DNA from: an uncultured Enterobacteriaceae bacterium | GTDB lineage: Bacteria > Pseudomonadota > Gammaproteobacteria > Burkholderiales > SG8-39 | Reading direction: 5' to 3' | NCBI GenBank assembly: GCA_964565875.1 | Contig: CAZMGP010000016.1 | Location: 12,269 to 76,268 of the forward strand | DNA length: 64,000 nt | Shown here: piece after piece, positions 50,240 to 64,000 of the stretch | Numbering within the stretch: the first letter of the stretch is position 1 | How the letters are laid out: every line of letters starts with the position of its first letter | Translations under genes and position numbers: made by a program | The notes under the pieces: generated by a model | The model's database searches: none | The model's input: only the letters and a program-made list of their open reading frames with translations | Told to the model about the DNA's origin: nothing

Positions 50240-50299
50240 AGTGTTTTTCCTTCCCTATACAAACCGGCTCCGCCACCGTAACTGCCCCGGGGCGTCGAA

Positions 50300-51511
50300 T
50301 CACCCCAGCTCGAGGCGTGCGGCGTTCGCCGGACCTGCTCTTGTGCGCTCGATCTCGCAGCGCTGCTCGCCCGCGGACCGGGATTGCGGCCAACGCACGC
50401 GGATCGATGTCCCCTTCCCCGGCGCGGACTCGAGCGCATAGTTGCCGCCGGAGTGCCGCGCGCGCTCGCGCATGCTGTGCAAGCCGAGTCCGCCGGCGAA
50501 ATCGCCCTTTGCTCCCGCCGCGTCGGGATCGAAGCCGCGCCCGTCATCCTCGATGCGGAGCTCGAGGGCGCCGCGCCGCTTCGCCAGCCGGACTCTGATG
50601 CAGCAGGCGCCGGCATGCTTGAGCGCGTTGTTGCTGGCCTCTTGCACTATCCTGAATATCGGCGTCTTGAGCGCTTCGGGAATGTCCGATTCGGAAACCT
50701 TGATCTCGCGCTCCACCGCGACGCCGCCGGCGGCGGATTCGAATTCGCGAAAATACCAAGCCAAGGTGGCGAGGATTCCCAGATTGTCCAGGGTGGCAGG
50801 ACGCAGGTTCATGGCGATGCGGCGCACATCTTCGATGGCATCGCGAATCTTGCGGTTCAAGTGCTTCAGATAGGCTTTCGCCTGCACCCGATTGCCTGCG
50901 TCGAGCAATTCCGACAGGCGCACCATCGAAACGCTCACCAGGCTCAATGATTGCCCCAAGCCGTCGTGCAAGTCCGCGGCGATGCGCTGGCGCTCCGCCT
51001 CTTGAATGTTCAAGTGTTGTGCCGCGCGCCGGCACAGTTCGTTCTCCGCGTCGCGCAAGGCGGCAGCCGTGCGTGCTTCTGCACCTAGATCCTGCGCATA
51101 CAACGTCAGGCCATCGAGCCGACCATTACCGTCGCAATGCGCGCTGATTGCCAGCATCGCTTCGAGGATTGCGCCGTCTTTTGCGATCAGCGCCGCTTTC
51201 CCGCTCCAGATGCCGTTGCGCACGGCCAGCGGAATCGCACGGCGCACGATGCCGCGGCGCTGCGCGGGCGCGATGCAGCCGATCAGCGTCGTCGCGGCGG
51301 CCGCCCCGCCGCCTGAGCCCAAAAGTGCGCGGCCCGCTGGGTTGACGTAGCGCAGCTCTCCGCTGCAGTCGGCGATCGCCACCAGCGCGGGCATCGTCTC
51401 GACCGCGGCAAGCAGTCGCGCGCTTAGTTGCTCGCTAGCCGGGCGCCGGCGCAGGCTGCCTGGTGTCGCGCCGGGTTTGCGACGGGCTTCAGGCGGCCGC
51501 GTGACAGGCAT
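50300..51511 (-). CDS. Cytoplasmic PAS-domain histidine kinase (HisKA_3 type, intact)
   Basis: 403 aa. H-box RIAADLHDGLGQ, N-box EASNNALKHA, G1 EDDGRGFD, G2 GGLGLHSMRERA. Confidence 0.9.
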   Translation of the reverse strand: MPVTRPPEARRKPGATPGSLRRRPASEQLSARLLAAVETMPALVAIADCSGELRYVNPAGRALLGSGGGAAAATTLIGCIAPAQRRGIVRRAIPLAVRNGIWSGKAALIAKDGAILEAMLAISAHCDGNGRLDGLTLYAQDLGAEARTAAALRDAENELCRRAAQHLNIQEAERQRIAADLHDGLGQSLSLVSVSMVRLSELLDAGNRVQAKAYLKHLNRKIRDAIEDVRRIAMNLRPATLDNLGILATLAWYFREFESAAGGVAVEREIKVSESDIPEALKTPIFRIVQEASNNALKHAGACCIRVRLAKRRGALELRIEDDGRGFDPDAAGAKGDFAGGLGLHSMRERARHSGGNYALESAPGKGTSIRVRWPQSRSAGEQRCEIERTRAGPANAARLELG

Positions 51512-51891: not shown

Positions 51892-52542
51892 TTACTTGTT
51901 GTGACAGGTCTTGCACAGAGCACTGCCCGTGCCCGCTACCTTCAGCAGCCCCGGGCCGGGCACCGTGTACTTGTTGTGAACGTCGTGGCAGGTGGAGCAC
52001 TCCACTTGTCCGCTGAATAGAATCACCGAAGCGATGGTGCCGGTCTGCGTCTGCGTTCCCGAGCCGATGGTCACCACCTGCGAGCTCGGGTCGAACAACG
52101 AGCCGTTCGCCACGGCCAAGGCGGAATCGTAGACGAAACCGATCGGATGATCGTCCTTCAGATTGGCACCGATGTTGTTGGCGCTGCTGATGTAAGTTGA
52201 GCCTGACGCGCCGCCGAAACTATCCACCGCGACGGTGCCGTCGTGGCACGACAGGCACAGTTTCGACAATATCCCCGGCTGCCCGATGCTGGCCTTCAGC
52301 GTCGCACTGCCGTAGAGCGCGTAACTTTGGGCGGACAGCGCGTGATTCCATTGCGGCGCGCCCGGGATCGAAGTCATCGAACTGTGCGAGTCGTGGCAAG
52401 TGATGCAGACCTGGCCACCCGACCAGTTGTAATTGGTGAAGTCGTGGGCCGAACCCAGGATCGATCCGGCCTCGGCGGCGTGCGCCGCGAGCACCAACAC
52501 GCCTGCCACAGACAACTTAATCGCGCGCTTGCTCCAGTACAT
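51892..52542 (-). CDS. Tetrahaem c-type cytochrome, paralogue 3
   Basis: Preferred ATG at 52542 (SD GGGAGGA). 216 aa with signal peptide. Four CxxCH motifs (CITCH, CLSCH, CSTCH, CKTCH). Ends 2 residues after the last haem motif. Confidence 0.88.
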   Translation of the reverse strand: MYWSKRAIKLSVAGVLVLAAHAAEAGSILGSAHDFTNYNWSGGQVCITCHDSHSSMTSIPGAPQWNHALSAQSYALYGSATLKASIGQPGILSKLCLSCHDGTVAVDSFGGASGSTYISSANNIGANLKDDHPIGFVYDSALAVANGSLFDPSSQVVTIGSGTQTQTGTIASVILFSGQVECSTCHDVHNKYTVPGPGLLKVAGTGSALCKTCHNK

Positions 52543-52618
52543 GTCGATCCTCCCGTGCCAGTGCGGGCAAGTCCGCCGATCGGCGATGGACACCACTTCC
52601 CGCGCTGCCGCCTTCTCC

Positions 52619-53269
52619 CTAGTAATTGTGACAAGCGAAGCAAATCGCGCTTCGCGCCGTGCTGATTTTCATCAGCCTTGCCGTCGTCGCCGTGTAGGTG
52701 TTGTGCACGTCGTGGCAGGACGAACATTCGATCTGCCCGCCGTAGAGCATCATCGCGGCGATGGTACCGGTTTTCGTCTGCGCGCCGCTGCCGATCGTCA
52801 CCGTGGTGACGCTCGGATCGAACAGCGCTGCGTCGCGAACGGCGAGCGCGGAGTCATAAAGAAAACTCGAAGGATGATGCACGTTCAAGTCGGTCCCGAG
52901 CTTGTTCGCGCTGCTGATATACACGCCGCCGGGTGCCCCCCCGTAGCTGTCGACCGCGACCGTGCCGTCGTGGCAGGAAAGGCACAGCTTCGATGCGCTC
53001 GAGGGCTGGCCCATCACCGCTTTGAGCGTCGTGCTCGAGTACAGCGTGTACACCTGGGTGCTGCCGGCGTGGTTCCATAGCGGCGCGGCGATCACGGCGC
53101 TTTGTCCCTTGTGCGGCACGTGGCAGGCGATGCAGATCTGCCCGCCCGACCACGCCGCCGTGGAAAAATCGTGTGCCGATCCCATGATCGTGCCCGCTGC
53201 GGCAGGATGGGTTGCGAGCGCGAACAATGCCGCCGCCAGACATGCGCTCATCCGCTTCGTCGTATTCAT
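52619..53269 (-). CDS. Tetrahaem c-type cytochrome, paralogue 2
   Basis: Preferred ATG at 53269 (SD GGAGG 9 nt upstream). 216 aa with signal peptide. CIACH, CLSCH, CSSCH, CFACH. Confidence 0.88.
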   Translation of the reverse strand: MNTTKRMSACLAAALFALATHPAAAGTIMGSAHDFSTAAWSGGQICIACHVPHKGQSAVIAAPLWNHAGSTQVYTLYSSTTLKAVMGQPSSASKLCLSCHDGTVAVDSYGGAPGGVYISSANKLGTDLNVHHPSSFLYDSALAVRDAALFDPSVTTVTIGSGAQTKTGTIAAMMLYGGQIECSSCHDVHNTYTATTARLMKISTARSAICFACHNY

Positions 53270-53296
53270 GCCGCTCACCCTCCTGATACGCGCCCG

Positions 53297-55015
53297 CTAA
53301 TAGCTTTTCGGATTATGGCTCTCCCCGTGGCACACCAGATAGCACTGTCCATGGTTGGTCCCGGTGGAGATGAACTGCAGTCTTCCGTTCACCGGCTTGA
53401 CGATCGAGGTGTCGAAATTGATCAGCTTGCTGTTGTTGGTCGGCGTGCCCTGGGTGGAGCTGATGCCGTGCGGATCGTGGCAGGCGTTGCAGGGCGAGCG
53501 CTCCTCCACCACGTGCTTGCGGTGGCCGTCGTCCGTGCCGAAGGGCGAGGCACCATTGCTGGCGGAGGTCAGCACGGTGCGGTTATGGCACTTGTAGCAA
53601 AGCGCGTAATTCGCCGCGCTCTCGGTAGTGCGGTCTGCAGTGACGTATTGGCGCTCGAGCAAGGTCGGATAGATCGAGCCATGCGGCCCCTTCGGTCCGG
53701 TCCCGCCCGCACCGGGCCCAGTATTGTTGTTGTGGCAGTCCCCGCAGCGCATCGTGCTCGCGATCGTCCAGGGCGGCAGCAGGCTGGGCACGTTGGTGTT
53801 CTTCCCCGGGCCGGCAACCGGATGGTAGGAAGGATTGCCGGTGTTGAATTCGAGGCGCGTGTTGTTCTGCGCGATTTGCCGCGTCGTGTGCGACGCCGGC
53901 ATGCCGCTGCTGTCGGCGTGGCAGCGGAAACAGATCTGGTACTCGGCGATGACCGGATTGATGGCGAGGCCGTTGATGTCGATACCGCGTACGCCGGTCA
54001 GCGAACCGGGCACGGTGCCGGCGACGGCGTTCGATGCATGGGGATTGTGGCAGTCCTGGCATTCCACATGGCGCGATTGCACCACGGCAGTTTCGCTCGG
54101 ATCGTGCACGCCGGTGTTGGCCGCCACCGGATGGATCGAAGCCTTGTTGAATTCCGTCTGGATGTTGAACGTCGCCACGTTGGCGTTGTGGCAGGGGTAG
54201 CAATTGGCCTCCTCCGCCGCCGCGTTTTGCAACCACCTTTTGCCGCCGGCCGAATGCGGCCGGTGGCAGTTCTCGCAGCCGTTGGCCGCGACCGTGGCGC
54301 CGCTCGTATGCGCCCAGGGGCTCGCGCCGACGCCGTTCCAGGTCTTCGGCGACAAGCTGTGGTCGCTCTGCGCCCAATAGTTCTTCAGATGGCAGACCTG
54401 GCACAGCGCCGAGGCCTGATTCGGCATCACCAGGAACTTGCCGTTGGGATCCTCGTGCGGATCGTGGCAGGAGGTGCACTGCAGTTGGCCGGTGGAGTCC
54501 AGCCGCACCGGCCCGGTGAGCGTCGCCGGGTCGGCGAGTTCACCGCGCGTAGACGCAAGCGTCAACGTATAGGCGATGGACACCGGGTGGTCGTCGGAGA
54601 GATCGGTGCCGAGCAGCGTATTGCCTGCGCCCAGGGTCGTCGTCCCGCTCGCCATCGCGACCGCGCTGGCGCGGCTCAGCACTTCGCCCAATGCGATGGT
54701 GCCGTCGTGGCAGGACAAGCACATGAGCGACCCGCGCGTCGGCTGGCCGGCGTTGGCTTTGGCGGTCGAACTGGTGTAAGGCGTATAGGTCGAGGCGGGC
54801 GTGCGCCGGTTCCACAGCTGCATGCTCGGCGCCGCATTGTGCGGCGCGTGACAAAAAACGCAAATCTGGGTTTCGCCCGTCGCCTTCACCGTCCCCGGCC
54901 CGGATACGGAGAGATTGTGCTTGGTCGCTGCAATCCCGGCCCAGGCTTGGCTCGCGCTCAGCATCAGGGCCGCGGCGAGCAGGCGTGTCCACCGGCGCCG
55001 ATGTGCGCCGTTCAC
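53297..55015 (-). CDS. Multihaem c-type cytochrome (11 CxxCH + 1 CxxxCH)
   Basis: 572 aa. GTG start overlaps the upstream stop (GTGA). Signal peptide ...ASQAWA. KHNLS...CVFCHAPH N-terminal module. Confidence 0.9.
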   Translation of the reverse strand: MNGAHRRRWTRLLAAALMLSASQAWAGIAATKHNLSVSGPGTVKATGETQICVFCHAPHNAAPSMQLWNRRTPASTYTPYTSSTAKANAGQPTRGSLMCLSCHDGTIALGEVLSRASAVAMASGTTTLGAGNTLLGTDLSDDHPVSIAYTLTLASTRGELADPATLTGPVRLDSTGQLQCTSCHDPHEDPNGKFLVMPNQASALCQVCHLKNYWAQSDHSLSPKTWNGVGASPWAHTSGATVAANGCENCHRPHSAGGKRWLQNAAAEEANCYPCHNANVATFNIQTEFNKASIHPVAANTGVHDPSETAVVQSRHVECQDCHNPHASNAVAGTVPGSLTGVRGIDINGLAINPVIAEYQICFRCHADSSGMPASHTTRQIAQNNTRLEFNTGNPSYHPVAGPGKNTNVPSLLPPWTIASTMRCGDCHNNNTGPGAGGTGPKGPHGSIYPTLLERQYVTADRTTESAANYALCYKCHNRTVLTSASNGASPFGTDDGHRKHVVEERSPCNACHDPHGISSTQGTPTNNSKLINFDTSIVKPVNGRLQFISTGTNHGQCYLVCHGESHNPKSY

Positions 55016-56049
55016 ACCGCGCCCCCGACATAGCGCAGCACCTGCACGCGCTGGTTATAGGAATCGGCGATATAGATCCGGTCGTGCTCGTCGATGAAAA
55101 TGCCGGTCGGCAGCCAAAACTCGCCGCGCTCGCGGCCGAGTGTTCCGACGGAGAGGAGCAGCGCGCCGCGCTCGTCGAATACCTGCAGCGCGTTGAACAG
55201 CGAATCCACCACGTAGACGTGTCCGTAGCGGTCGGTGGCGACGCCCTTCTGCCGGCCGAGGTCGCCGTTGCCGTCGCCGTAGCGTCCGAACTTGCCGACG
55301 AAGTGCCCCTGCGGATCGAACATTTGCACGCGGAAGTTCAACGCGTCGGTGACGTAGAGCCGCCCTTCGGCGTTGCGCCAGGCGAGCGTCGGATAATTGA
55401 ATTCGCCGTCCGCCGTGCCGCGACGGCCGATGCTCGTAACCAGGGCACCGCCGCGGTCGAATACCTGCACGCAGTGCGCCCGCGTGTCGACCACGAACAG
55501 GCGTCCGCTTGCGGGATCGAAGGCGAGGCCCGTAGGCTGCTGCAGCTTCGCCTGCAATGGAAGCGGCGCAGCCGTCTTCGCGCCGGGCCGGATGAGGTAG
55601 ACCGCGGCGAGCGCCGAGTCGCTGACGTAGACTTCGCCTTCCGCGCCGCGCGCAAGGCCCACCGGGGAGAGCAAGGGGCGCTCCTGTGGCCCTTGGATGA
55701 GCGCGTATTCGCCGCGCGCGCGGTCGAAGCGATGTACCCCTTTCACGCCGGGGTCGGCGACGTACACGACGTCGCCTACCGTCACCACCGACATCGGCCG
55801 AATCAGGCGTGTTTCGCTGCGCCCGAACAAGAGATCGCCCAGACGCGCCAGCAGTCCGCGTTCGATGCCCAAATCCTCGGGTCGGGAAAAGGCGCGCACG
55901 TAGGCAAGACGCGGTGGATCGGGCGCCGCGGGCCATGCCAGGGCGGGTTCCTCGTGCCGCTCTTGCGCGCTCGGCGCGCAGCCGGCGAGCGCAAGCGCCA
56001 GGGCGAGCCCAAGCGAGGTGCTGAAGATCGCTTTGGCCGTCACGCTCAA
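55012..56049 (-). CDS. NHL-repeat beta-propeller lipoprotein
   Basis: Preferred TTG at 56049 overlaps the barrel-gene stop (TTGA); GTG at 56043 is also possible. Lipobox LALAGC. Six repeats of the type (V/L)YV(A/V/T)DxxNxxVQ(V/M)FD. Confidence 0.83.
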   Translation of the reverse strand: MSVTAKAIFSTSLGLALALALAGCAPSAQERHEEPALAWPAAPDPPRLAYVRAFSRPEDLGIERGLLARLGDLLFGRSETRLIRPMSVVTVGDVVYVADPGVKGVHRFDRARGEYALIQGPQERPLLSPVGLARGAEGEVYVSDSALAAVYLIRPGAKTAAPLPLQAKLQQPTGLAFDPASGRLFVVDTRAHCVQVFDRGGALVTSIGRRGTADGEFNYPTLAWRNAEGRLYVTDALNFRVQMFDPQGHFVGKFGRYGDGNGDLGRQKGVATDRYGHVYVVDSLFNALQVFDERGALLLSVGTLGRERGEFWLPTGIFIDEHDRIYIADSYNQRVQVLRYVGGAV

Positions 56050-58148
56050 AAGTCCCTGCGCGCGAGCAATTGAACGAGCGCGCGCGAGCGTTTGAAATCG
56101 CCCTGCGTCTCGAGCGTGCGTCCGATATCCAGGCTCACGCTCGCCTTGCGGTAACGCCACTGCGCCTTCAGCGACTCCATCGTCCGGCGGCGCGGAATCG
56201 GGCTGCCGTTGTCGCTTTCGTAGCCCGCGTTCAAAGACAGATCGATACCGAACCAGTAGCGCGACCAGTAGCGCAGGTCATAGCCTTGGAGGTTCACGTT
56301 CTGCAGGGAGTTGGCGTAGTCGACGCGCATGCGCCGCGCCGACAGCCGAATGTTGCCGGTGCCGAAAAACGGCTCCTCCGACTGCACGTAGACGTCGCCC
56401 GACTGGCGCTTGTAGGGGGAAATGGTTTCGCGCCGGTCTTCGTGCTCCAGGTTGCCGCCGATGCTGATTTCGAAGCGCGCTTTCAGCGGCAGATCGGCGC
56501 GCAGGCCGTAGAGATTGCTCTTGATGGCATTCAGCGGAAAAGTCGGCGTGCCCGAAGTCAGGCGCGGCGCCGAATCGAAATAGCGGAAATAGACGCTGGC
56601 GTAGCTGAGCCAGCCCAGACTCAGATTCAGCGTCTGATCGGCCTGGTTGTAGGTGAAGCTGCCGCCGACGTCGTAAGCGTAATCCGCGAGCACGTCCTGC
56701 CCGTCGACGATCGCCCCGCCGATGAGCCGTTGCACCCGGGTCAGCGTGCCGATCACGGTCAGCGTGTAGTCGAAACCTTCGACATAGGTCTGCGTGCGCG
56801 TGGCGTTGGCGAGCACCAGGCTGCCGCTCGCCACATGCTGCTGGGCGAGCGCGACGAACGAAGTTCCGGCGAGCGTGAGGCGTTCGCCGATGATGCGTGC
56901 CTGTGTCGCCGCCGCCTGCTGCTCGCGCTGGTCGTAGCGCAAGCCGTAGCTCGCCAGCGCCGTGGTGCTACCCAGCTTCTCTTGATAGCGGACGGATCCG
57001 TCCGCGCCGCGGTTACGCGCGTCGAGTTGCTTGGTCCGATTATCGTCGGCGTGCACCCCGAGTGCGCCGGTCCACTCGGGGCGCGGCGCATAAGTCAAGC
57101 CGGCGGAAGCCGCGTGCGCCACCGAACTCAGATCGGCCTGATCGCTCGCTGCGTAATTGAGCAAGCCGAAAGTCTGCAATTCCTTGGAATGCCGGCCGCG
57201 CAGGTCGAGCAGGATCCGCTCGTCCTTCCGGTCCGGGATCGAAGTGCCGCCGGCGAGCGCGTAGCTTTGCGTGTTGACGGTGATGAGGTTGGTCAGGTCG
57301 TACTCGCGCGCGCTGCCGAATTGGAAGCGCGAATCGAGGTTGAGACCCTGATTGCTCGAATTCGACGCCTGAATCGGCAGATTCGGGCTGCCGCTCAACG
57401 ACGCCTGCTGCGTCGTCTGGAATTGCAGCTGGGTCGATCCCAGGCCACCGAAGCTGCGGCTCGCCCGCAGATTTACCCGGTCCACCTGATCGTCGACGAT
57501 GCGGTCCGCGCCGCGCCCTTGAAAATGCGAGCGCGTCGCATCGATGAACAGCGGTACCGGCGTCACCGGGGCGAGCAGCGAGAAATCGAAGCCGTAACGC
57601 GTGTTTTCCTGCGTCATCACCTGCCCCGGCGCGACGCTCACGGTCGGGTTGAGGTGATCGAAGAACAGCGATCCCTGATAGGGCTTGTCGTGCAGGAAAC
57701 TCGCGCGGCTGGTGAAATTGTAGAGGGTGCCGCGCGATTGGGTTTCGCCCGCATCCGAGACGAAACTGCCGTGCTGCAGGATCGGCCCCCCGCCGATATC
57801 CAGCGACAGCAGATTGGGATGATAGACATAGCTGTGCGTCATCAAGAACACTTCCTCGCGCATGTCCGACATGGCCTGGCGCGAGCGCGAACCGGCTGCC
57901 GCGCCCACCGCAGGCTGTTCGGTGGCGAAGTCGTCACGCAGGTAGCGCATGGTGACGTAGCCCTCGGTCCCGGTGATACGGAAAGGCGCGATCTGTTGCG
58001 CGACGCAAGGCCAGGCGCCGAGCGCGGCCATAGCGACTGCGACGCGAAATACACCGCTGATCGAGGCATGCTCGCATGTCAGGCTTCCTGCTCGTTGCGC
58101 CTCGGCGGCCGGGGCACAGAAGGACAATTCCGCTATGCGCGCCGTCAA
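56046..58148 (-). CDS. Large outer-membrane beta-barrel (porin-like) protein
   Basis: 700-aa ORF. Alternating amphipathic strand pattern throughout (YGFDFSL, LQFQTTQ, GIDLSLNAGYES) and a C-terminal ...LLARRDF with terminal Phe. The TTG start at 58148 overlaps the upstream stop. The N-terminus/signal peptide is uncertain. Confidence 0.7.
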   Translation of the reverse strand: MTARIAELSFCAPAAEAQRAGSLTCEHASISGVFRVAVAMAALGAWPCVAQQIAPFRITGTEGYVTMRYLRDDFATEQPAVGAAAGSRSRQAMSDMREEVFLMTHSYVYHPNLLSLDIGGGPILQHGSFVSDAGETQSRGTLYNFTSRASFLHDKPYQGSLFFDHLNPTVSVAPGQVMTQENTRYGFDFSLLAPVTPVPLFIDATRSHFQGRGADRIVDDQVDRVNLRASRSFGGLGSTQLQFQTTQQASLSGSPNLPIQASNSSNQGLNLDSRFQFGSAREYDLTNLITVNTQSYALAGGTSIPDRKDERILLDLRGRHSKELQTFGLLNYAASDQADLSSVAHAASAGLTYAPRPEWTGALGVHADDNRTKQLDARNRGADGSVRYQEKLGSTTALASYGLRYDQREQQAAATQARIIGERLTLAGTSFVALAQQHVASGSLVLANATRTQTYVEGFDYTLTVIGTLTRVQRLIGGAIVDGQDVLADYAYDVGGSFTYNQADQTLNLSLGWLSYASVYFRYFDSAPRLTSGTPTFPLNAIKSNLYGLRADLPLKARFEISIGGNLEHEDRRETISPYKRQSGDVYVQSEEPFFGTGNIRLSARRMRVDYANSLQNVNLQGYDLRYWSRYWFGIDLSLNAGYESDNGSPIPRRRTMESLKAQWRYRKASVSLDIGRTLETQGDFKRSRALVQLLARRDF

Positions 58149-59287
58149 CGGTTGAGCTTGGCCGTGGTCTTCGCCGACGCGCCGTCTTCAGCCGCGTAGT
58201 CCGCGCCGCGCATCTTGCCGAAACCGAAGACATCGACCTTGTTTTGGCCGAATTGGCTCACTACGAATATCAGGTATTGCAGATCGAATCCCGGTGCGGC
58301 GTAACGACGGAACGCCTCTACGTTGTCGTAGTCGATGGCGACCGCGGCGGGAAGATTCAATCCTTCGCGATTGTCGCCCGGCTGGCCGAAGAACAGCAGC
58401 AGGTGGCCGTCGTTGTCGAACACCTGCACGTTCTCGAAGGCCGAGTCGCCGACGTACAGGCGCCCCTCGCGGTCGATGGCGATGCCCTTCGGCCGGGAAA
58501 AATTGCCGCGTTCGTTGCCGATCTCGCCGTAGGCGCGCAGCGGTGCGCCGTCGGCGGTGAAGCGCTGCACGCGGAAATTGCTGGTTTCCACCACGTAGAC
58601 GTCGCCGTTCGGGCCGATGGCGATGTTGGTCGGATGAAACAGCTCTCCCAGCTTCGATCCCGCCTGGCCGAACGTGAACAGCAGCTTGCCCGAGCGCTTG
58701 TCCAATACCTGCACCTGATGGTGCTGGATGTCGACCACGTAGAGTCGCTCTCCCGCGATGGCGGTGTCCACCGGCTTGAACTGCTTATCGCCGCCGAATG
58801 CATTGACGAATCGGTCGTCGCGATCGAACACCAGCACTTGGTCACGGCCGGTGTCGGTGACGTACTTGGTGCCGTCGGCGTCGACAGTGATGTTGATCGG
58901 CCGCTTCATGCGGCCGCTCGGGGCGCCATTGACGAGGCTGAACGACTGCCGCGCGAGATCGAACACCGCCAACCCCGGCGCGCGGCTGTCGACGACGTAG
59001 AGCTTACCGTCGAACATCGCCACGCCGTAGGGCTGCTTGAGCTGCTGCACCTTGGCGTCGTCGCCGAGAACGAACTGCGCGAATCCGCTCGTCGCTGCGC
59101 CCAGGTCACGCTCGCCGCTGATGGTCTTGAGATGCTGGATGCGCGGAGCTTCCGGCGCCGGCGGATAGAACGTCGGTCCCTGGACACGCGGCGCCTCCAC
59201 CGGCGCCGTCGCGCATGCCGCGAGCAGCGCGACGAGGCAGACGCTCGCCGCACTCCGGCGCAAATTCATCGCGCGCATCCGGACCAT
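58145..59287 (-). CDS. NHL-repeat beta-propeller lipoprotein (paralogue)
   Basis: 380 aa with lipobox LLAAC and repeated LYVVDxxxxxVQVxD-type NHL blades. Confidence 0.85.
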   Translation of the reverse strand: MVRMRAMNLRRSAASVCLVALLAACATAPVEAPRVQGPTFYPPAPEAPRIQHLKTISGERDLGAATSGFAQFVLGDDAKVQQLKQPYGVAMFDGKLYVVDSRAPGLAVFDLARQSFSLVNGAPSGRMKRPINITVDADGTKYVTDTGRDQVLVFDRDDRFVNAFGGDKQFKPVDTAIAGERLYVVDIQHHQVQVLDKRSGKLLFTFGQAGSKLGELFHPTNIAIGPNGDVYVVETSNFRVQRFTADGAPLRAYGEIGNERGNFSRPKGIAIDREGRLYVGDSAFENVQVFDNDGHLLLFFGQPGDNREGLNLPAAVAIDYDNVEAFRRYAAPGFDLQYLIFVVSQFGQNKVDVFGFGKMRGADYAAEDGASAKTTAKLNR

Positions 59288-59298
59288 TGCTCTCGCTG

Positions 59299-59961
59299 CT
59301 ACTTGTTGTGGCAGGCCACGCAGATCTTGCTGCCCGCCGTGTCCATCTTCACCATGCCGGTGCCGTTGGCGCCGACGGCGAAAGTGTTATGCACGTCGTG
59401 GCAGGAGGAGCATTCCATCTGGCCGTTGAACAGCATCACCGAGGCCACGGTACCGGTCTTGGTCTGCGCTCCGGCGCCGATGGTCACGGTTTTCGTCGCC
59501 GGGTCGAACAGCGAGCCGTTGGCGTTGGCGAGCGTGGTGTCGTAGAGGAAACCGATCGGATGATCGTCGTTCAGGGCGGCGCCGCCGAGATTGTTCTTTG
59601 CGCTGATGGTCGTGGTGCCCACCGTGCCGCCGAAGCTGTCGACCGCCACTGTACCGTCGTGGCAGGACAGGCACAGCTTGGAGTTGCCCTCCGGCTGCCC
59701 CAGCGCTGCTTTCAATGTCGGGCTGCTGTAGAGCGTATACACCTGCGTCGTCACCGCGTGGTTCCACAGGGGCGCCGCGGACACCGAGGTATTGCTGTTG
59801 TGCGGCGTATGGCAGGTAACGCAGACCTTCTGTCCCGGGTTCCAGTTCGCGGTGGAAAAGTCGTGCGCCGATCCCGCCAAAGTGCCGGCGAAGCCGAACT
59901 GTGCCGCTAGCAGCAGTCCCGTCCCTGCGATCCATTTAACTGCGACTGTCAGTGATTTCAT
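59299..59961 (-). CDS. Tetrahaem c-type cytochrome, paralogue 1 (first gene of operon)
   Basis: 220 aa, SD GAGGAG, signal peptide. CVTCH, CLSCH, CSSCH, CVACH. Confidence 0.88.
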   Translation of the reverse strand: MKSLTVAVKWIAGTGLLLAAQFGFAGTLAGSAHDFSTANWNPGQKVCVTCHTPHNSNTSVSAAPLWNHAVTTQVYTLYSSPTLKAALGQPEGNSKLCLSCHDGTVAVDSFGGTVGTTTISAKNNLGGAALNDDHPIGFLYDTTLANANGSLFDPATKTVTIGAGAQTKTGTVASVMLFNGQMECSSCHDVHNTFAVGANGTGMVKMDTAGSKICVACHNK

Positions 59962-60243: not shown

Positions 60244-61137
60244 ATGAACTACGAAGCCACGCTGACTCAAGCGGCGGCCGCGCGCCGCCCGGACACCCCT
60301 GCACCTGCTGTCGACACGCCTGCGCCTGCGCAGCAGCCGAAGCGCGTACCGCCGTCCGCCGCGATCGCCGCCATGTCGACGATGCTCCTCGTCTGGGCGT
60401 GGAACGTGCACCACGCCGGCCTGTACCAATCGGGAAAGGGTCTCGGCTACGTTCTCGGCCTAGTCGGCGGCTCGCTGATGCTGGTGCTGCTCCTCTACCC
60501 GTTGCGCAAGCACCTGCGCGTCATGCACGAATGGGGGCCGCTCAAATATTGGTTTCGTTTCCACATGATCGCGGGCGTGCTGGGGCCGCTGCTGGTGTTG
60601 TTCCATTCGACCTTCCGCGTCGGTTCGCTGAACGCGGCCGTAGCGCTCGCCTGCATGCTGCTCGTTGTCGCGAGCGGGCTCGCCGGCCGCTTTCTCTACC
60701 GCAAGATTCACCACGGCCTGTACGGCAGCCGCGCGAGCCTGCAGGAATTGCAGCAAACCCTGGCGCGCGAACGCGAAGCGCTGTCGCATTTGCTCGCGCG
60801 CCTGCCGCAAGTCGAGCGCGAGATCGACCGCTTCGCCGCCCTGGTCGCCCACGAGCCGCAAGGCTGGTACCGGCGCTGGGCGCATTTTCTATCGCTGGGT
60901 GCGAAACGCGCACTCGCGGTGCACCGTGCGCGGCGCGCCGTAGCGGCGCACGGTGTCCGATCAGACCTCGCCGCCCTGCTCGTCACCATCGACGCCACGC
61001 TGAAAGCGGTACAGCGCACGGCGCAGTTCTCCACCTATGAGCGCCTGTTTTCCCTCTGGCATGTGGTCCACATTCCGTTCTTGTGCATGCTGGTCATCAC
61101 TGCCCTCATCCATGTCGTGGCTGTTCACGTTTACTAG
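60244..61137 (+). CDS. Integral membrane protein with two His-x13-His helices (candidate di-haem b electron conduit)
   Basis: 297 aa with about 5 predicted TM helices. FRFHMIAGVLGPLLVLFH and WHVVHIPFLCMLVITALIHVV carry His pairs with 13 intervening residues. Confidence 0.7.
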   Translation: MNYEATLTQAAAARRPDTPAPAVDTPAPAQQPKRVPPSAAIAAMSTMLLVWAWNVHHAGLYQSGKGLGYVLGLVGGSLMLVLLLYPLRKHLRVMHEWGPLKYWFRFHMIAGVLGPLLVLFHSTFRVGSLNAAVALACMLLVVASGLAGRFLYRKIHHGLYGSRASLQELQQTLAREREALSHLLARLPQVEREIDRFAALVAHEPQGWYRRWAHFLSLGAKRALAVHRARRAVAAHGVRSDLAALLVTIDATLKAVQRTAQFSTYERLFSLWHVVHIPFLCMLVITALIHVVAVHVY

Positions 61138-62923
61138 GTTCATCGCCGCCGCCGCTCATTTCGTAGTCGCCATCTTCTTCGCCGGCGCTGCGCCTGCCGC
61201 GGCGCAGATGCTCGAGTCGGCGATCATGCCGGGCGCGGTCATTCAAGGCCACATCAAGCAGGAATCCGATTGCAAGAACTGCCACGTGCGCTTCGACCGG
61301 GCGGCGCAGCCGCGACTGTGCCTGGACTGCCACAAGGAGGTGGCGCGCGACGTGCAGGCGAAGACCGGCTACCACGGGCGCCTGAAGGAGCGCGAGTGTC
61401 GCGGCTGCCATACCGAGCACAAGGGGCGCAATGCCCGCATCGTCGTGCTCGACGAGCATGCCTTCGATCACGCCCAGACCGATTTCCTGTTGCAAGGCAA
61501 GCACGCCAAGCTCGCCTGCTCGAGTTGCCACCGCCCGCGCGTCAAACATCGGCAGGCGCCCACTTCCTGCGTCGGCTGTCACCGCAAGGACGACAAGCAC
61601 AAGGAGACACTAGGCGCCAAATGCGAAAGCTGCCACAGCGAAAAGAGCTGGAAGGAGGCGCGCTTCGATCACGCCAAGACGCAGTTCCCGCTCGTCGAGC
61701 GTCACGCCAAAGTGAAGTGCGCAGAATGCCACGCCGACGCACAGCACTTTGCCAAAACCGCGCGCGATTGCATCGCCTGCCACCGCAAGGACGACAAGCA
61801 CAAGGCGACGCTGGGCGCGAAATGCGAGAGCTGCCACAGCGAAAAGTCGTGGAAGGAAACGCGTTTCGAGCATGCGAAAACGCGCTTCCCGCTGCTCCTT
61901 TCTCACGCCAAGGTGAAGTGCAACAAGTGTCACGAAGACATGCAGCATTTGGCGAAGACCGCGAGCGACTGCGCCTCTTGTCACCGCAAGGACGACGCGC
62001 ACAAGGGAGCGCTGGGCGCGAAATGCGAGGGTTGCCACAACGAAAGGACCTGGAAAGAGGCGATTCGCTTCGATCACGCACGCGACGCGCGCTTTCCGCT
62101 GCGCGACAAGCATCAGGCCGCCAAATGCCAAAGCTGTCACAAAGATGTCCGTTTTCGCGACAAGCTGCCGACTGCCTGCTTCGGCTGCCACGAGCGCGAC
62201 GATCGCGAGAAAGGGCACAAGGGCCGCTACGGCGAGAAGTGCGAGTCTTGCCATGCCGAGAAGGCGTTCAAATCCGTTACCTTCGAACACGCCCGCGACG
62301 CGAAATTCGAACTGAAAGGCAAGCATGCGCAGGCCAAGTGCGACACCTGCCACAGCGGCGTTCTCTACCGCGACAAGCTCAAGCAGCGCTGTTTCGCCTG
62401 CCACGAAAAGGACGACAAGCACAAAGCGCAGCTAGGGCCGGAATGCGATCGCTGCCATAGCGAGCGCAACTGGAAGGAAACCTCGTTCGATCACGACCGT
62501 TCCGCGTTCCGGCTGCTCGACAAACACAAGGGCTTGGAGTGCAAGAAATGCCATGCGAGCCCCGCGTTCAAGGACGCAAAGTCCGAATGCGCCTCCTGCC
62601 ACGCCAAGGACGACTTTCACAAGGAGCGACTCGGCCCCGGCTGCGGCCAATGCCATCGGCCGCAGTCGTGGAAGACCTGGGAGTTCGACCACAATCAGCG
62701 CTCGCGCTTCAAGCTCGCCGATGCGCACGTGCGCGTGAAGTGCCTCGCCTGCCACGTGAAGCCGGTGAAGGAGAAGCTTACGCTTGCCGTCGAATGCTAC
62801 AGTTGCCACCGTGAGGACGACATCCATTTCGACACCAACGGCCAAAAATGCGAGCGCTGCCACGTGCCACAGAACTGGCGCAAAACCGTCGGCGACGCAC
62901 TGCTGCCGAAGAAGGATCGCTGA
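61112..62923 (+). CDS. 24-haem periplasmic cytochrome c (eight tandem trihaem c7-type modules)
   Basis: Preferred ATG at 61112 with signal peptide MSWLFTFTRFIAAAAHFVVAIFFAGAAPAAAQ. I counted 24 CxxCH motifs in a repeating FDH...C..CH...C..CH..DD.HK..LG..C..CH pattern. Confidence 0.9.
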   Translation: MSWLFTFTRFIAAAAHFVVAIFFAGAAPAAAQMLESAIMPGAVIQGHIKQESDCKNCHVRFDRAAQPRLCLDCHKEVARDVQAKTGYHGRLKERECRGCHTEHKGRNARIVVLDEHAFDHAQTDFLLQGKHAKLACSSCHRPRVKHRQAPTSCVGCHRKDDKHKETLGAKCESCHSEKSWKEARFDHAKTQFPLVERHAKVKCAECHADAQHFAKTARDCIACHRKDDKHKATLGAKCESCHSEKSWKETRFEHAKTRFPLLLSHAKVKCNKCHEDMQHLAKTASDCASCHRKDDAHKGALGAKCEGCHNERTWKEAIRFDHARDARFPLRDKHQAAKCQSCHKDVRFRDKLPTACFGCHERDDREKGHKGRYGEKCESCHAEKAFKSVTFEHARDAKFELKGKHAQAKCDTCHSGVLYRDKLKQRCFACHEKDDKHKAQLGPECDRCHSERNWKETSFDHDRSAFRLLDKHKGLECKKCHASPAFKDAKSECASCHAKDDFHKERLGPGCGQCHRPQSWKTWEFDHNQRSRFKLADAHVRVKCLACHVKPVKEKLTLAVECYSCHREDDIHFDTNGQKCERCHVPQNWRKTVGDALLPKKDR

Positions 62924-62944: not shown

Positions 62945-64000
62945 ATGAGCAACTTGCTCCTCCCCTTGAGCTATCTCGTGCCGCTCGTGCTGCTGCTCGG
63001 CACCTACGTCTATCGCTGGCGCCGGCGCGAGGCGCGCGCCGCGGACACGCTCGCGCGCTCGCTGAAGACGGGGTTGACCGAGCCGCCCAGCCTGCATCCC
63101 GTGATCGACCTGAATTTGTGCATGGGATCTGGCGCGTGCACGCGCGCCTGTCCGGAAGGGACCTTGGGCATCGTCAAGGGCAAGGCGCACATGATCAACC
63201 CCACCGTCTGCATCGGCCACGGCGCCTGCGCCGCTGCATGTCCGGTCGAGGCGATCAAGCTGGTGTTCGGATCGGCGCGCCGCGGCGTCGACATTCCCTA
63301 CGTCAAGCCGACGTTCGAGACCAACGTGCCTGGGATATTCATCGCCGGCGAACTCGGCGGCATGGGACTGATCCGCAATGCCGCCGAACAGGGACGGCAG
63401 GCGATGGAGTCGATTGCGCGCAACCGCGCGCAGCCCGATCAGTTGGACGTCGTGATCATCGGCGCGGGTCCGGCCGGACTGTCGGCGACGCTCGCGGCGA
63501 TGGAGCACAAGTTGCGCTTCGTCACGCTGGAGCAGGAGGACTCTCTCGGCGGCTGCGTCTACCACTATCCGCGCAACAAGATCGTCGCCACCCATCCGGT
63601 GACGCTGCCGCTGGTAGGCAAAGTCAAGTTGGGTGAGATCTCGAAGGAATCCTTACTCGAATTCTGGCAGGGCATCGTCAAGCGCACGTCGATGTCGATC
63701 CGTTTCGGCGAATGCATGGACAGCATCACCGCCGTGGACCGCGGGTTCATCGTGAAGACCGGGCGCGCTGAATACCGCTGTCGCTCGGTGCTGCTCGCCA
63801 TCGGCCGCCGCGGATCTCCGCGCAAGCTCGGCGTGCCCGGCGAGGAACTGTCCAAAGTCGTCTATCGCCTCATCGACCCGGAGCAATATCGGGGCAAGCA
63901 TGTGCTGGTGGTGGGCGGCGGCAACAGCGCGGTCGAAGCCGCAGTCGCGCTCGCGGAAGAACCGGGATCGAGCGTGACCATTTCCTACCGCGGCGAGAGC
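62945..64000 (+). CDS. Membrane-anchored Fe-S / FAD-NAD(P)-binding oxidoreductase, N-terminal 352 codons (runs off the right edge)
   Basis: Absent from the ORF track because it has no stop in the window. Manual translation: N-terminal TM helix (LLLPLSYLVPLVLLLGTYVY), two ferredoxin-like motifs CMGSGACTRACP and CIGHGACAAACP, then VVIIGAGPAGLSA (FAD) and VLVVGGGNSAVEAA (NAD(P)) Rossmann motifs. Confidence 0.8.
   Translation, partial: MSNLLLPLSYLVPLVLLLGTYVYRWRRREARAADTLARSLKTGLTEPPSLHPVIDLNLCMGSGACTRACPEGTLGIVKGKAHMINPTVCIGHGACAAACPVEAIKLVFGSARRGVDIPYVKPTFETNVPGIFIAGELGGMGLIRNAAEQGRQAMESIARNRAQPDQLDVVIIGAGPAGLSATLAAMEHKLRFVTLEQEDSLGGCVYHYPRNKIVATHPVTLPLVGKVKLGEISKESLLEFWQGIVKRTSMSIRFGECMDSITAVDRGFIVKTGRAEYRCRSVLLAIGRRGSPRKLGVPGEELSKVVYRLIDPEQYRGKHVLVVGGGNSAVEAAVALAEEPGSSVTISYRGES

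What the first reader, a model, noticed from the sequence alone, without database searches (positions are those of the whole stretch)
60244..61137. Membrane protein with two His-x13-His transmembrane helices: possible new di-haem b transmembrane electron carrier
Seen in sequence: helix 3 (FRFHMIAGVLGPLLVLFH) and the C-terminal helix (VHIPFLCMLVITALIH) each carry two His separated by 13 residues, about four helical turns. This places one His pair near each membrane face. A ~120-residue soluble helical segment separates helices 4 and 5.

Established knowledge: His pairs spaced 13-14 residues apart on two helices are the ligation pattern of trans-membrane di-haem b proteins such as the ferric-reductase/NOX domain, MsrQ and the cytochrome b of bc1.

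Inference: it could pass electrons between the cytoplasmic Fe-S flavoprotein and the periplasmic 24-haem cytochrome without involving quinones. I do not recognise the family.
Basis: partly seen in the sequence, partly recalled or inferred. Interest (0 to 1): 0.6.

Follow-up and report, generated by a model that had tools for sequence, protein, structure and literature searches.

The report
PCC3 inner-membrane di-haem protein candidate
This gene encodes the conserved inner-membrane protein of a "PCC3" cytochrome conduit, predicted in 2017 to hold two b haems but never tested, and here it is strictly paired across genomes with a membrane-anchored NAD(P)H-type iron-sulfur flavoprotein that published models leave out.

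Summary
ORF 60244-61137(+) encodes a 297-aa, five-helix membrane protein. It carries W-x3-H-x13-H on helix 3 (H107/H121) and on helix 5 (H276/H290). These four His are kept in 311-312 of 312 homologs, down to 35% identity.

The family is not new. It matches every published mark of the "conserved inner membrane protein" of PCC3 porin-cytochrome clusters (He et al. 2017), which was already proposed to bind two b haems. Nobody has tested that. The protein has no Pfam, NCBIfam or PDB sequence match, and two AlphaFold models gave no Foldseek hit.

What I add:
- A 21-27-haem periplasmic cytochrome gene follows it directly in 80 of 80 loci. Here it has 24 haems and overlaps the IMP gene by 26 nt.
- The neighbouring 432-aa membrane-anchored Fe-S/FAD/NAD(P) flavoprotein co-occurs with it almost perfectly: 32 genomes have both, 3 only one, 3 only the other and 262 neither (p = 3e-36). 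The match is exact in 31 close relatives, including copy number.
- In this genome the PCC3 inner module faces a Uet-like outer-membrane module instead of the usual PCC3 porin.

Best reading: a NOX-like, quinone-independent link from flavoprotein through two b haems to the 24-haem wire, probably running outward. Haem binding and direction are inferred.

The parts
60244..61137 (+). PCC3-type inner-membrane protein (IMP), 297 aa, 5 TM helices plus a cytoplasmic helical insert; candidate di-haem b carrier
   Evidence: (2503 50%-identity clusters at E<=1e-3). No Pfam, NCBIfam or PDB sequence match.
60550..60606 (+). TM3 motif W103-x3-H107-x13-H121, with G111, G114 and P115
   Evidence: Invariant in 312/312 homologs. 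Matches the He 2017 signature.
60673..60687 (+). TM4 motif S144-G145-x-x-G148
   Evidence: 100% conserved. Matches the He 2017 'SGXXG on TM4'.
60700..61050 (+). Cytoplasmic helical segment (residues 153-269), starting with the conserved K-I-H156-H-G-L-Y-G
   Evidence: pLDDT 89-97. Mean K+R 18.9, so cytoplasmic. Juxtamembrane couplings I155-F269, S162-F262 and Y160-R267.
61057..61128 (+). TM5 motif W272-H273-x2-H276-x-P278 ... H290 ... H295
   Evidence: W272, H276, P278 and H290 are at or near 100%; H273 99%; H295 89%.
61112..62923 (+). Periplasmic 24-haem cytochrome c built of c7-type trihaem repeats. Likely start is ATG 61112, with signal peptide MSWLFTFTRFIAAAAHFVVAIFFAGAAPAAA|Q. It overlaps the IMP gene by 26 nt.
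   Evidence: 24 CxxCH. Cytochrome_C7 E=2e-30. Sequence read. A homolog lies directly downstream of the IMP in 80/80 loci.
62945..64000 (+). Membrane-anchored Fe-S flavoprotein (432 aa in full; runs 243 nt past the window end). It has an N-terminal TM helix, CxxSxxCxxxCP and CxxHxxCxxxCP motifs, a FAD motif GAGPAG and an NAD(P) motif GGGNSA.
   Evidence: (closest solved: YpdA/Bdr 7a7b 2e-22; TrxR-type FNRs 5ygq and 3ab1). Co-occurrence.
51892..59961 (-). Divergent Uet-like outer-membrane module: three tetrahaem cytochromes (59299-59961, 52619-53278, 51892-52596), two NHL beta-propellers (58145-59287, 55012-56160), a roughly 700-aa putative OM barrel ending in Phe (56046-58148) and an 11-haem cytochrome (53297-55015)
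   Evidence: CxxCH counts; Pfam NHL and Paired_CXXCH; the same block is in 25/80 loci. Compared by gene content only with the uet cluster described in 10.1101/2022.05.06.490989.

Best explanation
The ORF is an ortholog of the conserved inner-membrane protein (IMP) of PCC3 porin-cytochrome clusters.

Most likely it binds two b-type haems between TM3 and TM5. H107 and H276 would hold the haem near the cytoplasmic face. H121 and H290 would hold the haem near the periplasmic face. The protein would carry electrons across the inner membrane.

On the periplasmic side it hands electrons to, or takes them from, the translationally coupled 24-haem c7-polymer cytochrome. That cytochrome reaches the Uet-like outer-membrane module.

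On the cytoplasmic side its partner is the membrane-anchored flavoprotein, in the order NAD(P)H, FAD, two atypical Fe-S clusters, haem b. The IMP's cytoplasmic helical insert and the conserved H156/H273 patch may serve as the docking site.

Together these parts would work like a split NADPH oxidase or ferric reductase that bypasses the quinone pool. The probable direction is outward, from NAD(P)H to an extracellular acceptor. That direction runs downhill and with the membrane potential.

Shown: family identity by signature, invariance of the His and small residues, topology, gene coupling and co-occurrence. Inferred: haem binding, physical contact with the flavoprotein, the nucleotide used, and the direction of flow.
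For: (1) Signature. The protein is 297 aa with 5 TM helices, S144-G-x-x-G148 on TM4, and Wx3Hx13H on TM3 and TM5. This is exactly He et al.'s description of the PCC3 IMP. The adjacent cytochrome has 24 haems, within the 21/24/27 reported for the PCC3 periplasmic cytochrome.

(2) Conservation. The four His are kept in 311-312 of 312 homologs. G72, G75, G111, P115, N130, S144, G145, G148 and P278 are also at about 100%, which fits a haem pocket.

(3) Geometry. A spacing of 14 residues puts both His of a helix on one face, about 21 A apart. Mean-field DCA (Meff 224) gives TM3-TM5 pairs L113-C281, F120-T286 and T123-L280. It also gives TM4-TM5 and TM2-TM5 pairs. The register levels H107 with H276 and H121 with H290.

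(4) Topology. The N-terminus is inside, the 117-residue insert is cytoplasmic and the C-terminus is periplasmic.

(5) Cytochrome partner. It lies directly downstream in 80/80 loci. Here the two genes overlap by 26 nt.

(6) Flavoprotein partner.
- It lies within 10 kb in 36/80 loci.
- All 18 of 18 genomes whose locus lacked it still encode a full-length ortholog at 55-61% identity.
- Among 300 class-level genomes, 32 have both, 3 only the IMP, 3 only the flavoprotein and 262 neither. Fisher p = 3e-36.
- The six mismatches are in fragmented assemblies (120-560 contigs in five, 60 in the sixth). In G225 and G193 the gene lies within about 1.6 kb of a contig start, and in G171 the match is partial on a short contig.
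- In about 25 of the 32 genomes the two genes are no more than 1.6 kb apart, usually divergent.
- Genomes with two IMP genes have two flavoprotein genes (G239, G287, G330).
- In 31 close relatives the same 5 genomes have both and 26 have neither.

(7) The flavoprotein itself. It keeps an N-terminal TM helix followed by R/K, six invariant Cys plus an invariant His in two ferredoxin-like motifs, and FAD and NAD(P) Rossmann motifs. It has no redox-active CxxC.

(8) Expression. In Sideroxydans ES-1 both PCC3 clusters go down on Fe(II) relative to thiosulfate (Zhou et al. 2022). This fits a role other than Fe(II) uptake.
Against: No biochemical data exist for any member of the family.

Homology to known di-haem b families is not established:
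- The Pfam Ferric_reduct model does not hit the protein.
- hhalign against 13 MsrQ-like proteins gives only 16% probability.
- DUF4405 and Ni_hydr_CYTB matches stay below threshold.
- Foldseek against the PDB gave no hit at E<=1e-3 for either model.

The DCA rests on only about 224 effective sequences.

Co-occurrence shows a functional link, not direct electron transfer. Three further conserved His (H156, H273, H295) are unexplained and could mean a different cofactor arrangement.

The co-occurrence statistics are not corrected for phylogeny, although the positives spread over about 31 genera.

Outward flow dissipates membrane potential, so its physiological benefit is unclear. Many hosts are aerobes or lithotrophs (Nitrospira, Gallionellaceae).
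Confidence: 0.6

Rival explanations
1. This is the published PCC3 model (He et al. 2017). The IMP is a quinone-active di-haem cytochrome b, like the b subunit of bc1 or of [NiFe]-hydrogenase. It exchanges electrons between the periplasmic multihaem cytochrome and the quinone pool. The flavoprotein is a separate or accessory function.
For: He et al. proposed this on the basis of the same motifs. Sub-threshold Pfam matches go to DUF4405 (25/91 members) and to Ni_hydr_CYTB, the prokaryotic cytochrome b561 family (6/91 members). Ni_hydr_CYTB proteins react with quinones, from established knowledge. Most known inner-membrane entry and exit points of extracellular electron transfer (CymA, CbcL, ImcH) are quinol-linked.
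Against: This model does not explain why a membrane-anchored NAD(P)-type Fe-S flavoprotein tracks the IMP almost one-to-one in presence, absence, copy number and position. That pattern holds across Proteobacteria, Nitrospirota and Thermodesulfobacteriota. No quinone-site motif was identified. The protein has only 5 helices and very short periplasmic loops.
Confidence: 0.2
2. The wiring is the same but the direction is inward. Extracellular electrons enter through the outer-membrane module and the 24-haem wire. They cross the membrane on the two b haems and reduce the flavoprotein, making NAD(P)H or reducing another cytoplasmic acceptor.
For: PCC3 and Uet clusters were discovered in iron oxidizers and cathode-oxidizing bacteria. 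Hosts here include lithoautotroph lineages such as Nitrospira and Thiobacillus-like MAGs. In Sideroxydans CL21 the IMP gene of PCC3 copy 2 rose when cells oxidized iron.
Against: Established bioenergetics argues against it. Fe(II) couples lie far above NAD(P)+/NAD(P)H (-320 mV). Moving an electron from the positive to the negative side of the membrane costs a further 150 mV or so. In ES-1 both PCC3 clusters were down-regulated on Fe(II). An inward role would need a very low-potential donor or a higher-potential cytoplasmic acceptor that has not been identified.
Confidence: 0.12
3. The protein is not an electron carrier. The conserved TM His and Trp would handle haem in transit, or bind another metal. 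The protein and the flavoprotein would then form a dedicated maturation or redox-maintenance module for the giant multihaem cytochrome, loosely like the TM His of CcsBA or CcmF.
For: The gene is always coupled to a very haem-rich cytochrome. The conserved W-H motifs and extra His (H156, H273, H295) exceed what two bis-His haems need. No homology to a proven redox family was established.
Against: There is no WWD-type periplasmic domain. The periplasmic loops are only 6-7 residues. The Hx13H pairs on two contacting helices are the classic static di-haem pattern. Translational coupling points to a stoichiometric partner rather than a catalytic maturation factor.
Confidence: 0.08

Closest known systems
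Conserved inner membrane protein (IMP) of PCC3 porin-cytochrome clusters (He, Barco, Emerson & Roden 2017, Front Microbiol 8:1584; in Sideroxydans lithotrophicus ES-1 the clusters Slit_0867-0870 and Slit_1446-1449, IMP = Slit_1446)
   Same: Length of about 300 aa, five TM helices, SGxxG on TM4, Wx3Hx13H on TM3 and TM5. It is encoded next to a periplasmic cytochrome with 21-27 haems. It is annotated as hypothetical and has no Pfam domain.
   Different: In this genome the outer half of the conduit is not the PCC3 porin plus a giant extracellular cytochrome. It is a Uet-like set: an 11-haem cytochrome, tetrahaem cytochromes, NHL propellers and a barrel. The flavoprotein sits in the same operon downstream, rather than divergently upstream as in most genomes. 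The published model links the IMP to quinones and does not mention the flavoprotein.
Ferric-reductase transmembrane domain (Pfam PF01794) of NOX, FRE, STEAP-like enzymes and MsrQ/YedZ
   Same: Two His pairs on the third and fifth helices, spaced 12-13 residues apart, would give two stacked b haems across the membrane. The electron donor is a cytoplasmic flavin/NAD(P)H module. The cytoplasmic positions of loops 2-3 and 4-5 match.
   Different: There is no detectable sequence or fold homology. The IMP has five helices, not six. A 117-residue cytoplasmic helical insert lies before the second His helix. The dehydrogenase is a separate, TM-anchored TrxR/YpdA-fold flavoprotein with Fe-S clusters, not a fused plant-type FNR domain. 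The acceptor is a multihaem cytochrome wire.
Uet (undecahaem electron transfer) cluster of Candidatus Tenderia electrophaga and some Gallionella (bioRxiv 10.1101/2022.05.06.490989; Hoover et al. 2023)
   Same: The divergent neighbour genes encode an 11-haem cytochrome, tetrahaem cytochromes, two NHL-repeat proteins and a large OM barrel candidate.
   Different: UetB (PPIase), UetF (cupredoxin) and the three separate trihaem c7 proteins UetD, UetE and UetG are absent. An 8 x c7 24-haem polymer plus the IMP and the flavoprotein take their place. The comparison rests on gene content only, because no Tenderia sequences were at hand.
Inner-membrane quinol-linked cytochromes of extracellular electron transfer (CymA, CbcL, ImcH, CbcBA)
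   Same: They occupy the same position in the pathway, as the inner-membrane entry or exit point feeding periplasmic multihaem cytochromes.
   Different: Those proteins carry c-type haems and/or HydC/FdnI-type b subunits, and they react with quinols. The IMP has no CxxCH motif and is genomically tied to an NAD(P)-type flavoprotein.

Membership tests
PCC3 conserved inner-membrane protein (He et al. 2017) | About 300 aa, annotated hypothetical, five predicted TM helices | tested here: met
   297 aa. Helices at 37-58, 66-87, 100-121, 129-152 and about 270-296 in two AF2 models. No Pfam or NCBIfam hit.
PCC3 conserved inner-membrane protein (He et al. 2017) | SGXXG motif on TM4 | tested here: met
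   S144-G145-L-A-G148; all three residues are 100% conserved in 312 homologs.
PCC3 conserved inner-membrane protein (He et al. 2017) | Two WX3HX13H motifs, on TM3 and TM5 | tested here: met
   W103/H107/H121 and W272/H276/H290, conserved at 99% or more.
PCC3 conserved inner-membrane protein (He et al. 2017) | Encoded next to a periplasmic multihaem cytochrome with about 21-27 haems | tested here: met
   A 24-CxxCH ORF lies directly downstream, with a homolog in that position in 80/80 loci. Published range is 21/24/27.
PCC3 conserved inner-membrane protein (He et al. 2017) | Cluster also holds the PCC3 porin and a very haem-rich extracellular cytochrome | tested here: inconclusive
   Each of the sampled relatives L028, L039, L061, L072 and L075 has both a 10-30-haem cytochrome and a 717-815-aa barrel candidate. 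L065 has a 72-haem cytochrome that runs to the end of the fetched locus, so no barrel could be seen. This window, and 25/80 loci, carry a Uet-like barrel plus an 11-haem cytochrome instead.
PCC3 conserved inner-membrane protein (He et al. 2017) | Direct sequence homology to the named reference proteins (Slit_1446, Slit_0867-0870 cluster IMP, Leptothrix cholodnii) | not tested
   Named reference sequences could not be fetched. The 80 genome loci returned were the closest relatives and did not include those isolates.
Ferric_reduct domain (PF01794; NOX/FRE/MsrQ) | Match to the family HMM above the curated cut-off | tested here: not met
   No Pfam hit at E<=0.01. A six-frame PF01794 search of the genome finds only an MsrQ-like gene on contig C15.
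Ferric_reduct domain (PF01794; NOX/FRE/MsrQ) | Profile-profile or fold similarity to members | tested here: inconclusive
   hhalign of the 312-sequence IMP profile against 13 MsrQ-like proteins gives probability 16% and E 0.0016. It aligns W103-H107...H121 with the MsrQ W..H...H helix. Foldseek against the PDB gave no hit at E<=1e-3.
Ferric_reduct domain (PF01794; NOX/FRE/MsrQ) | Two His pairs (12-13 spacing) on the third and fifth helices, same orientation | tested here: met
   H107/H121 on TM3 and H276/H290 on TM5, both running from inside to outside. This is a motif-level resemblance only.
DUF4405 (PF14358) / prokaryotic cytochrome b561 (PF01292) | HMM match above the curated cut-off | tested here: not met
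   Only sub-threshold matches: DUF4405 in 25/91 members (best E 0.0043, 14 bits against a cut-off of 26.7) and Ni_hydr_CYTB in 6/91. The DUF4405 pieces map to TM4 and TM5.
Transmembrane di-haem b cytochrome (functional class) | Binds two b-type haems through bis-His ligation | not testable with these tools
   This needs spectroscopy or a structure with cofactors. Only the sequence prerequisites were checked.
NOX-like NAD(P)H-driven transmembrane electron transfer (works-like) | A dedicated cytoplasmic flavin/NAD(P)H dehydrogenase partner | tested here: met
   Met at the genomic level only. Co-occurrence is 32 both / 3 / 3 / 262 neither, with matched copy number and adjacency. FAD and NAD(P) motifs and the TM anchor are conserved. 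Physical contact was not tested.

The most novel reading that the evidence does not exclude
The IMP, the flavoprotein and the multihaem wire form a widespread, modular bacterial analogue of NADPH oxidase. The chain would run from NAD(P)H to FAD, through two atypical Fe-S clusters (CxxS/A... and CxxH... motifs) and two b haems, to a periplasm-spanning 21-27-haem wire and then to interchangeable outer-membrane modules (PCC3-type or Uet-type). This would move cytoplasmic reducing power to the cell exterior without the quinone pool. It occurs in about 12% of the sampled class-level genomes and also in Nitrospirota and Thermodesulfobacteriota. If so, PCC3 has been mis-modelled as a quinone-linked Fe(II)-oxidation pathway.
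Probability: 0.45. Interest if true: 0.8.

Novelty: new member of a known kind. Interest (0 to 1): 0.5.

Why it matters
[quoted passage not shown] Their inner-membrane end has never been studied.

Suppose the IMP is a di-haem b protein fed by a dedicated NAD(P)H flavoprotein. The conduit would then be a quinone-independent, NOX-like electron exit, or a very unusual entry. That changes how these genes should be read in metagenomes.

It also gives a small, testable three-protein module for wiring cytoplasmic NAD(P)H to electrodes.

The finding that the same inner module is combined with either a PCC3-type or a Uet-type outer-membrane module suggests that envelope-spanning conduits evolve by swapping modules.

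Tried and rejected
**Searches that found nothing or were inconclusive**
- Sequence search of the PDB with the IMP: no hit even at E<=10.
- Pfam and NCBIfam: no hit.
- Two AlphaFold2 models (pLDDT 75.6, then 81.6 with a more diverse 91-sequence alignment). Foldseek against the PDB returned only long-helix noise (BAR domains, ClyA, ABC exporters) with nothing at E<=1e-3. So there is no confident match to a non-redox family either.
- hhalign against MsrQ-like proteins collected from relatives: probability 16%, inconclusive.
- Genome search with the DUF4405 model: only short, weak six-frame hits. It was not usable for building a comparison profile.
- Longer homologs with N-terminal extensions: I hoped for fusions to redox domains, but found only TPR or SPOR domains or nothing.
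- The look-up of encoding contigs found no record for the exact protein.

**Literature**
- Searches for a published link between PCC3 and a flavoprotein found none. He 2017's main text has none of the terms FAD, flavoprotein, pyridine nucleotide or 4Fe-4S, and its one NADH mention concerns the Acidithiobacillus bc1 pathway. Its supplements have none of oxidoreductase, pyridine, FAD or ferredoxin.

**Ideas rejected**
- The motif is a chance occurrence. Its invariance rules this out.
- The flavoprotein is a disulfide reductase of the YpdA/Bdr or TrxB type. It has no CxxC, and it has Ala where, from memory, YpdA has its active Cys in the GxGPxG motif.
Full report
**1. What is there**

The ORF at 60244-61137(+) encodes a 297-aa protein. 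Two AlphaFold2 runs agree on its layout: four TM helices (37-58, 66-87, 100-121, 129-152), a helical soluble segment (about 153-269), and a long helix whose last part (about 270-296) is a fifth TM helix. The first run used 49 sequences and gave pLDDT 75.6. The second used 91 sequences down to 35% identity and gave pLDDT 81.6 and pTM 0.65.

H107 and H121 lie on helix 3. H276 and H290 lie on helix 5. Each pair has 13 residues between the two His.

Across 312 family members, mean K+R is 4.1 in the 12-residue loop 2-3 and 18.9 in the long segment. In loops 1-2 and 3-4 it is 0.6 and 0.5. So the N-terminus and the 117-residue segment are cytoplasmic, and the C-terminus (…HVVAVHVY) is periplasmic. 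H107 and H276 then sit near the cytoplasmic face. H121 and H290 sit near the periplasmic face.

**2. Is it more than chance?**

The family is large. There are more than 2,000 hits in the 90%-identity collection, all labelled hypothetical. There are 2,503 clusters at 50% identity with E<=1e-3.

I aligned 312 full-length members at 35-100% identity. Conservation is:
- H107 and H121: 312/312.
- H276 and H290: 311/312.
- H273: 309. H156: 295. H295: 278.
- W103, W272, G72, G75, G111, P115, N130, S144, G145, G148 and P278: about 100%.

The many invariant small residues and prolines on the His-bearing helices and their neighbours fit a cofactor pocket. That last point is an inference.

**3. What family is it?**

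Pfam, NCBIfam and the PDB sequence search gave nothing. The literature did.

He et al. [quoted passage not shown] It is about 300 aa, hypothetical and has five TM helices. It has SGXXG on TM4 and WX3HX13H on TM3 and TM5. They proposed that it binds two b haems, like the ferric-reductase domain or cytochrome b, and that it talks to the quinone pool.

Every one of these marks is met here: S144-G-L-A-G148, W103x3H107x13H121 and W272x3H276x13H290.

Hoover et al. 2023 report 21, 24 or 27 haems for the PCC3 periplasmic cytochrome. The ORF downstream of the IMP has 24 CxxCH motifs and c7-type repeats.

The 80 genome loci fetched come from MAGs labelled Rhodocyclaceae, Thiobacillus, Comamonadaceae, Nitrospira, Thermodesulfobacteriota and Rokubacteria. 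A homolog of this cytochrome lies directly downstream of the IMP in 80 of 80.

Sampled relatives show the classic PCC3 layout, each with both a 10-30-haem second cytochrome and a 717-815-aa barrel candidate (L028, L039, L061, L072, L075). L065 has a 72-haem second cytochrome that runs to the end of the fetched locus, so no barrel could be seen there.

I could not align directly to the named reference proteins (Slit_1446 and others). That one membership item stays untested.

**4. Relation to known di-haem b families**

The Ferric_reduct HMM does not recognise the protein. In this genome it finds only an MsrQ-like gene elsewhere.

A profile-profile comparison of the IMP family against 13 MsrQ-like proteins aligns the W-x3-H…H helix with the MsrQ W..H…H helix. 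The probability is only 16% and the pairwise E is 0.0016.

I scanned 91 members individually against Pfam. The most frequent sub-threshold family was DUF4405 (25 members, best E 0.0043), followed at a distance by prokaryotic cytochrome b561 (6 members). The DUF4405 fragments map to TM4 and TM5.

Foldseek of both models against the PDB gave no hit at E<=1e-3.

So the protein works like an FRD-type di-haem carrier on paper, but I cannot file it as a member of that family.

**5. Are the His helices neighbours?**

Among the top couplings are:
- TM4-TM5 pairs: A131-L280, L140-F279, V142-L280, S128-T286.
- TM3-TM5 pairs: L113-C281, F120-T286, T123-L280.
- TM2-TM5 pairs: Y69-H295, G76-A287.
- Juxtamembrane pairs linking the K-I-H156-H-G-L-Y-G segment to the helix just before TM5: I155-F269, S162-F262, Y160-R267.

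The TM3-TM5 register (113 with 281, 120 with 286) places H107 level with about 275-276 and H121 level with about 289-290. This is weak but consistent support that the two His pairs face each other.

**6. The partners**

The 24-haem cytochrome most likely starts at ATG 61112. That start gives a signal peptide MSWLFTFTRFIAAAAHFVVAIFFAGAAPAAA|Q and overlaps the IMP stop codon by 26 nt. This suggests translational coupling.

The next gene (62945 onward, completed from the genome contig) encodes a 432-aa protein. Its parts, in order, are:
- an N-terminal TM helix followed by RWRRRE;
- two ferredoxin-like motifs;
- a FAD motif (VVIIGAGPAG);
- an NAD(P) motif (VVGGGNSA).

Its closest solved relatives are YpdA/Bdr (7a7b, 2e-22) and TrxR-type ferredoxin-NADP reductases. 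It has no CxxC.

In 23 orthologs the first Fe-S motif is C-x2-(S/A, rarely C)-x2-C-x3-C-P. The second is C-I-G-H-G-A-C-x3-C-P, with the His invariant. These are atypical clusters, possibly 3Fe-4S or His-ligated. That reading is an inference.

**7. Is the flavoprotein really linked to the IMP?**

It lies within 10 kb of the IMP in 36 of 80 loci, in several arrangements:
- same operon downstream, as here;
- divergent and immediately upstream;
- about 5-7.5 kb upstream, on the opposite strand in the Nitrospira-type loci and on the same strand in two Thermodesulfobacteriota loci.

For 18 genomes whose locus lacked it, a whole-genome search found a full-length ortholog in 18 of 18. Identity was 55-61% and E was 1e-155 to 1e-169. 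In at least three of them (G001, G002, G003) it lay on the same contig within about 2.5 kb beyond the fetched flank.

As a control I searched 300 genomes drawn evenly from the class.
- 35 have the IMP and 35 have the flavoprotein (E<=1e-60).
- 32 have both, 3 only the IMP, 3 only the flavoprotein and 262 neither.
- Fisher p = 3e-36, uncorrected for phylogeny. The positives spread over about 31 genera.
- The six mismatches are in fragmented assemblies (120-560 contigs in five, 60 in G225). In G225 and G193 the gene lies within about 1.6 kb of a contig start, and in G171 the match is partial on a short contig.
- In about 25 of the 32 genomes the two genes are no more than 1.6 kb apart, mostly divergent.
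- Genomes with two IMP genes (G239, G287) have two flavoprotein genes, each next to its own IMP.

Among 31 close relatives, 19 of them in the same genus, the same five genomes carry both genes and 26 carry neither. Copy number matches again: G330 has two of each.

He et al.'s main text has none of the terms FAD, flavoprotein, pyridine nucleotide or 4Fe-4S. Its single NADH mention concerns the Acidithiobacillus bc1 pathway. Its supplements have none of oxidoreductase, pyridine, FAD or ferredoxin. I found no paper in the library that makes this link.

Earlier notes of this scan, from other genomes, reached the same reading. I treat them as leads. The tests above are my own.

**8. How it most likely works**

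The proposed chain is:
1. NAD(P)H.
2. FAD.
3. Two Fe-S clusters, held at the membrane surface by the flavoprotein's TM anchor.
4. The cytoplasmic-side haem b (H107/H276).
5. The periplasmic-side haem b (H121/H290).
6. The 24-haem c7 polymer.
7. The outer-membrane module.

The H156/H273 patch may help at the step from Fe-S to haem b.

I favour the outward direction at roughly 65:35. It is thermodynamically downhill and is assisted by the membrane potential. Reducing NAD(P)+ from Fe(II)-level donors, against the potential, is not feasible (established bioenergetics).

Expression data are mixed. In Sideroxydans ES-1 both PCC3 clusters are down-regulated on Fe(II) relative to thiosulfate (Zhou et al. 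2022). In Sideroxydans CL21 one IMP gene rose when cells oxidized iron.

Shown: the signature, conservation, topology, gene coupling and co-occurrence. Inferred: haem binding, contact with the flavoprotein, the nucleotide used and the direction of flow.

**9. What is particular to this window**

The divergent minus-strand genes at 51892-59961 encode three tetrahaem cytochromes, two NHL propellers, an 11-haem cytochrome and a roughly 700-aa protein ending in …RRDF. The last has no Pfam hit.

By gene content this resembles the uet cluster of Candidatus Tenderia (UetA, UetH/I, UetJ, UetC). UetB, UetF and the three separate trihaem c7 proteins are missing. The 8 x c7 polymer may replace those three.

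The same hybrid of a PCC3 inner module with a Uet-like outer module occurs in 25 of the 80 loci, which are the closest relatives. I did not compare sequences with Tenderia proteins.

**10. Verdict**

It is a new member of a known, bioinformatically defined kind. The added value is the strict flavoprotein coupling and the modular outer half.

Noticed in passing
window 51892-59961 (- strand): This is a Uet-like outer-membrane module: three paralogous tetrahaem cytochromes (219, 219 and 234 aa), two NHL beta-propeller proteins, an 11-CxxCH cytochrome (572 aa), and a roughly 700-aa protein with no Pfam hit that ends in Phe (a putative barrel). It faces the PCC3 inner module divergently. The same hybrid occurs in 25/80 related loci.
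   Followed up: partly
window 62945-64000 and beyond (C16 75213-76511): The flavoprotein's two ferredoxin-like motifs each lack the second Cys. They read C-x2-S/A-x2-C-x3-CP and C-I-G-H-G-A-C-x3-CP. The His is invariant in 23 orthologs from three phyla. This suggests 3Fe-4S or His-ligated clusters rather than standard 2x[4Fe-4S].
   Followed up: partly
window 49574-51511 (- strand): A two-component system lies directly beyond the cytochrome cluster: a HisKA_3/HATPase_c sensor kinase and a NarL/LuxR-type response regulator. It is a possible regulator of the conduit. Further upstream lie pcm, an nlpD-like M23/LysM gene and an rpoS-like sigma factor.
   Followed up: no
L065:12785-20876: An ORF of at least 2,697 aa with 72 CxxCH motifs follows the IMP and 24-haem pair in an uncultured betaproteobacterial MAG. 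It runs to the end of the fetched locus.
   Followed up: no
proteins P0250, P0239, P0144, P0234 (homologs): Some IMP homologs are 450-690 aa long, with N-terminal extensions carrying TPR or SPOR domains or no recognisable domain. None is fused to a redox domain.
   Followed up: partly
G059:C1:2217466-2218323 and G335:C165:24774-25661: In one complete genome the flavoprotein ortholog next to the IMP is truncated and has an in-frame TGA. In a same-genus relative the IMP has an in-frame TAA. These may be decaying copies of the module.
   Followed up: no
window 56046-58148 (- strand): The putative barrel protein gives a sub-threshold NCBIfam match to a phage tail tube family (tail_tube_6XGR; E 6e-8, 32 bits against a cut-off of 60). 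This is probably beta-rich noise.
   Followed up: no
relatives G319-G336 (same genus): Only 4 of 19 same-genus genomes, this one included, carry the IMP-flavoprotein pair. The module is accessory and patchy within the genus, which fits gain or loss as a unit.
   Followed up: partly
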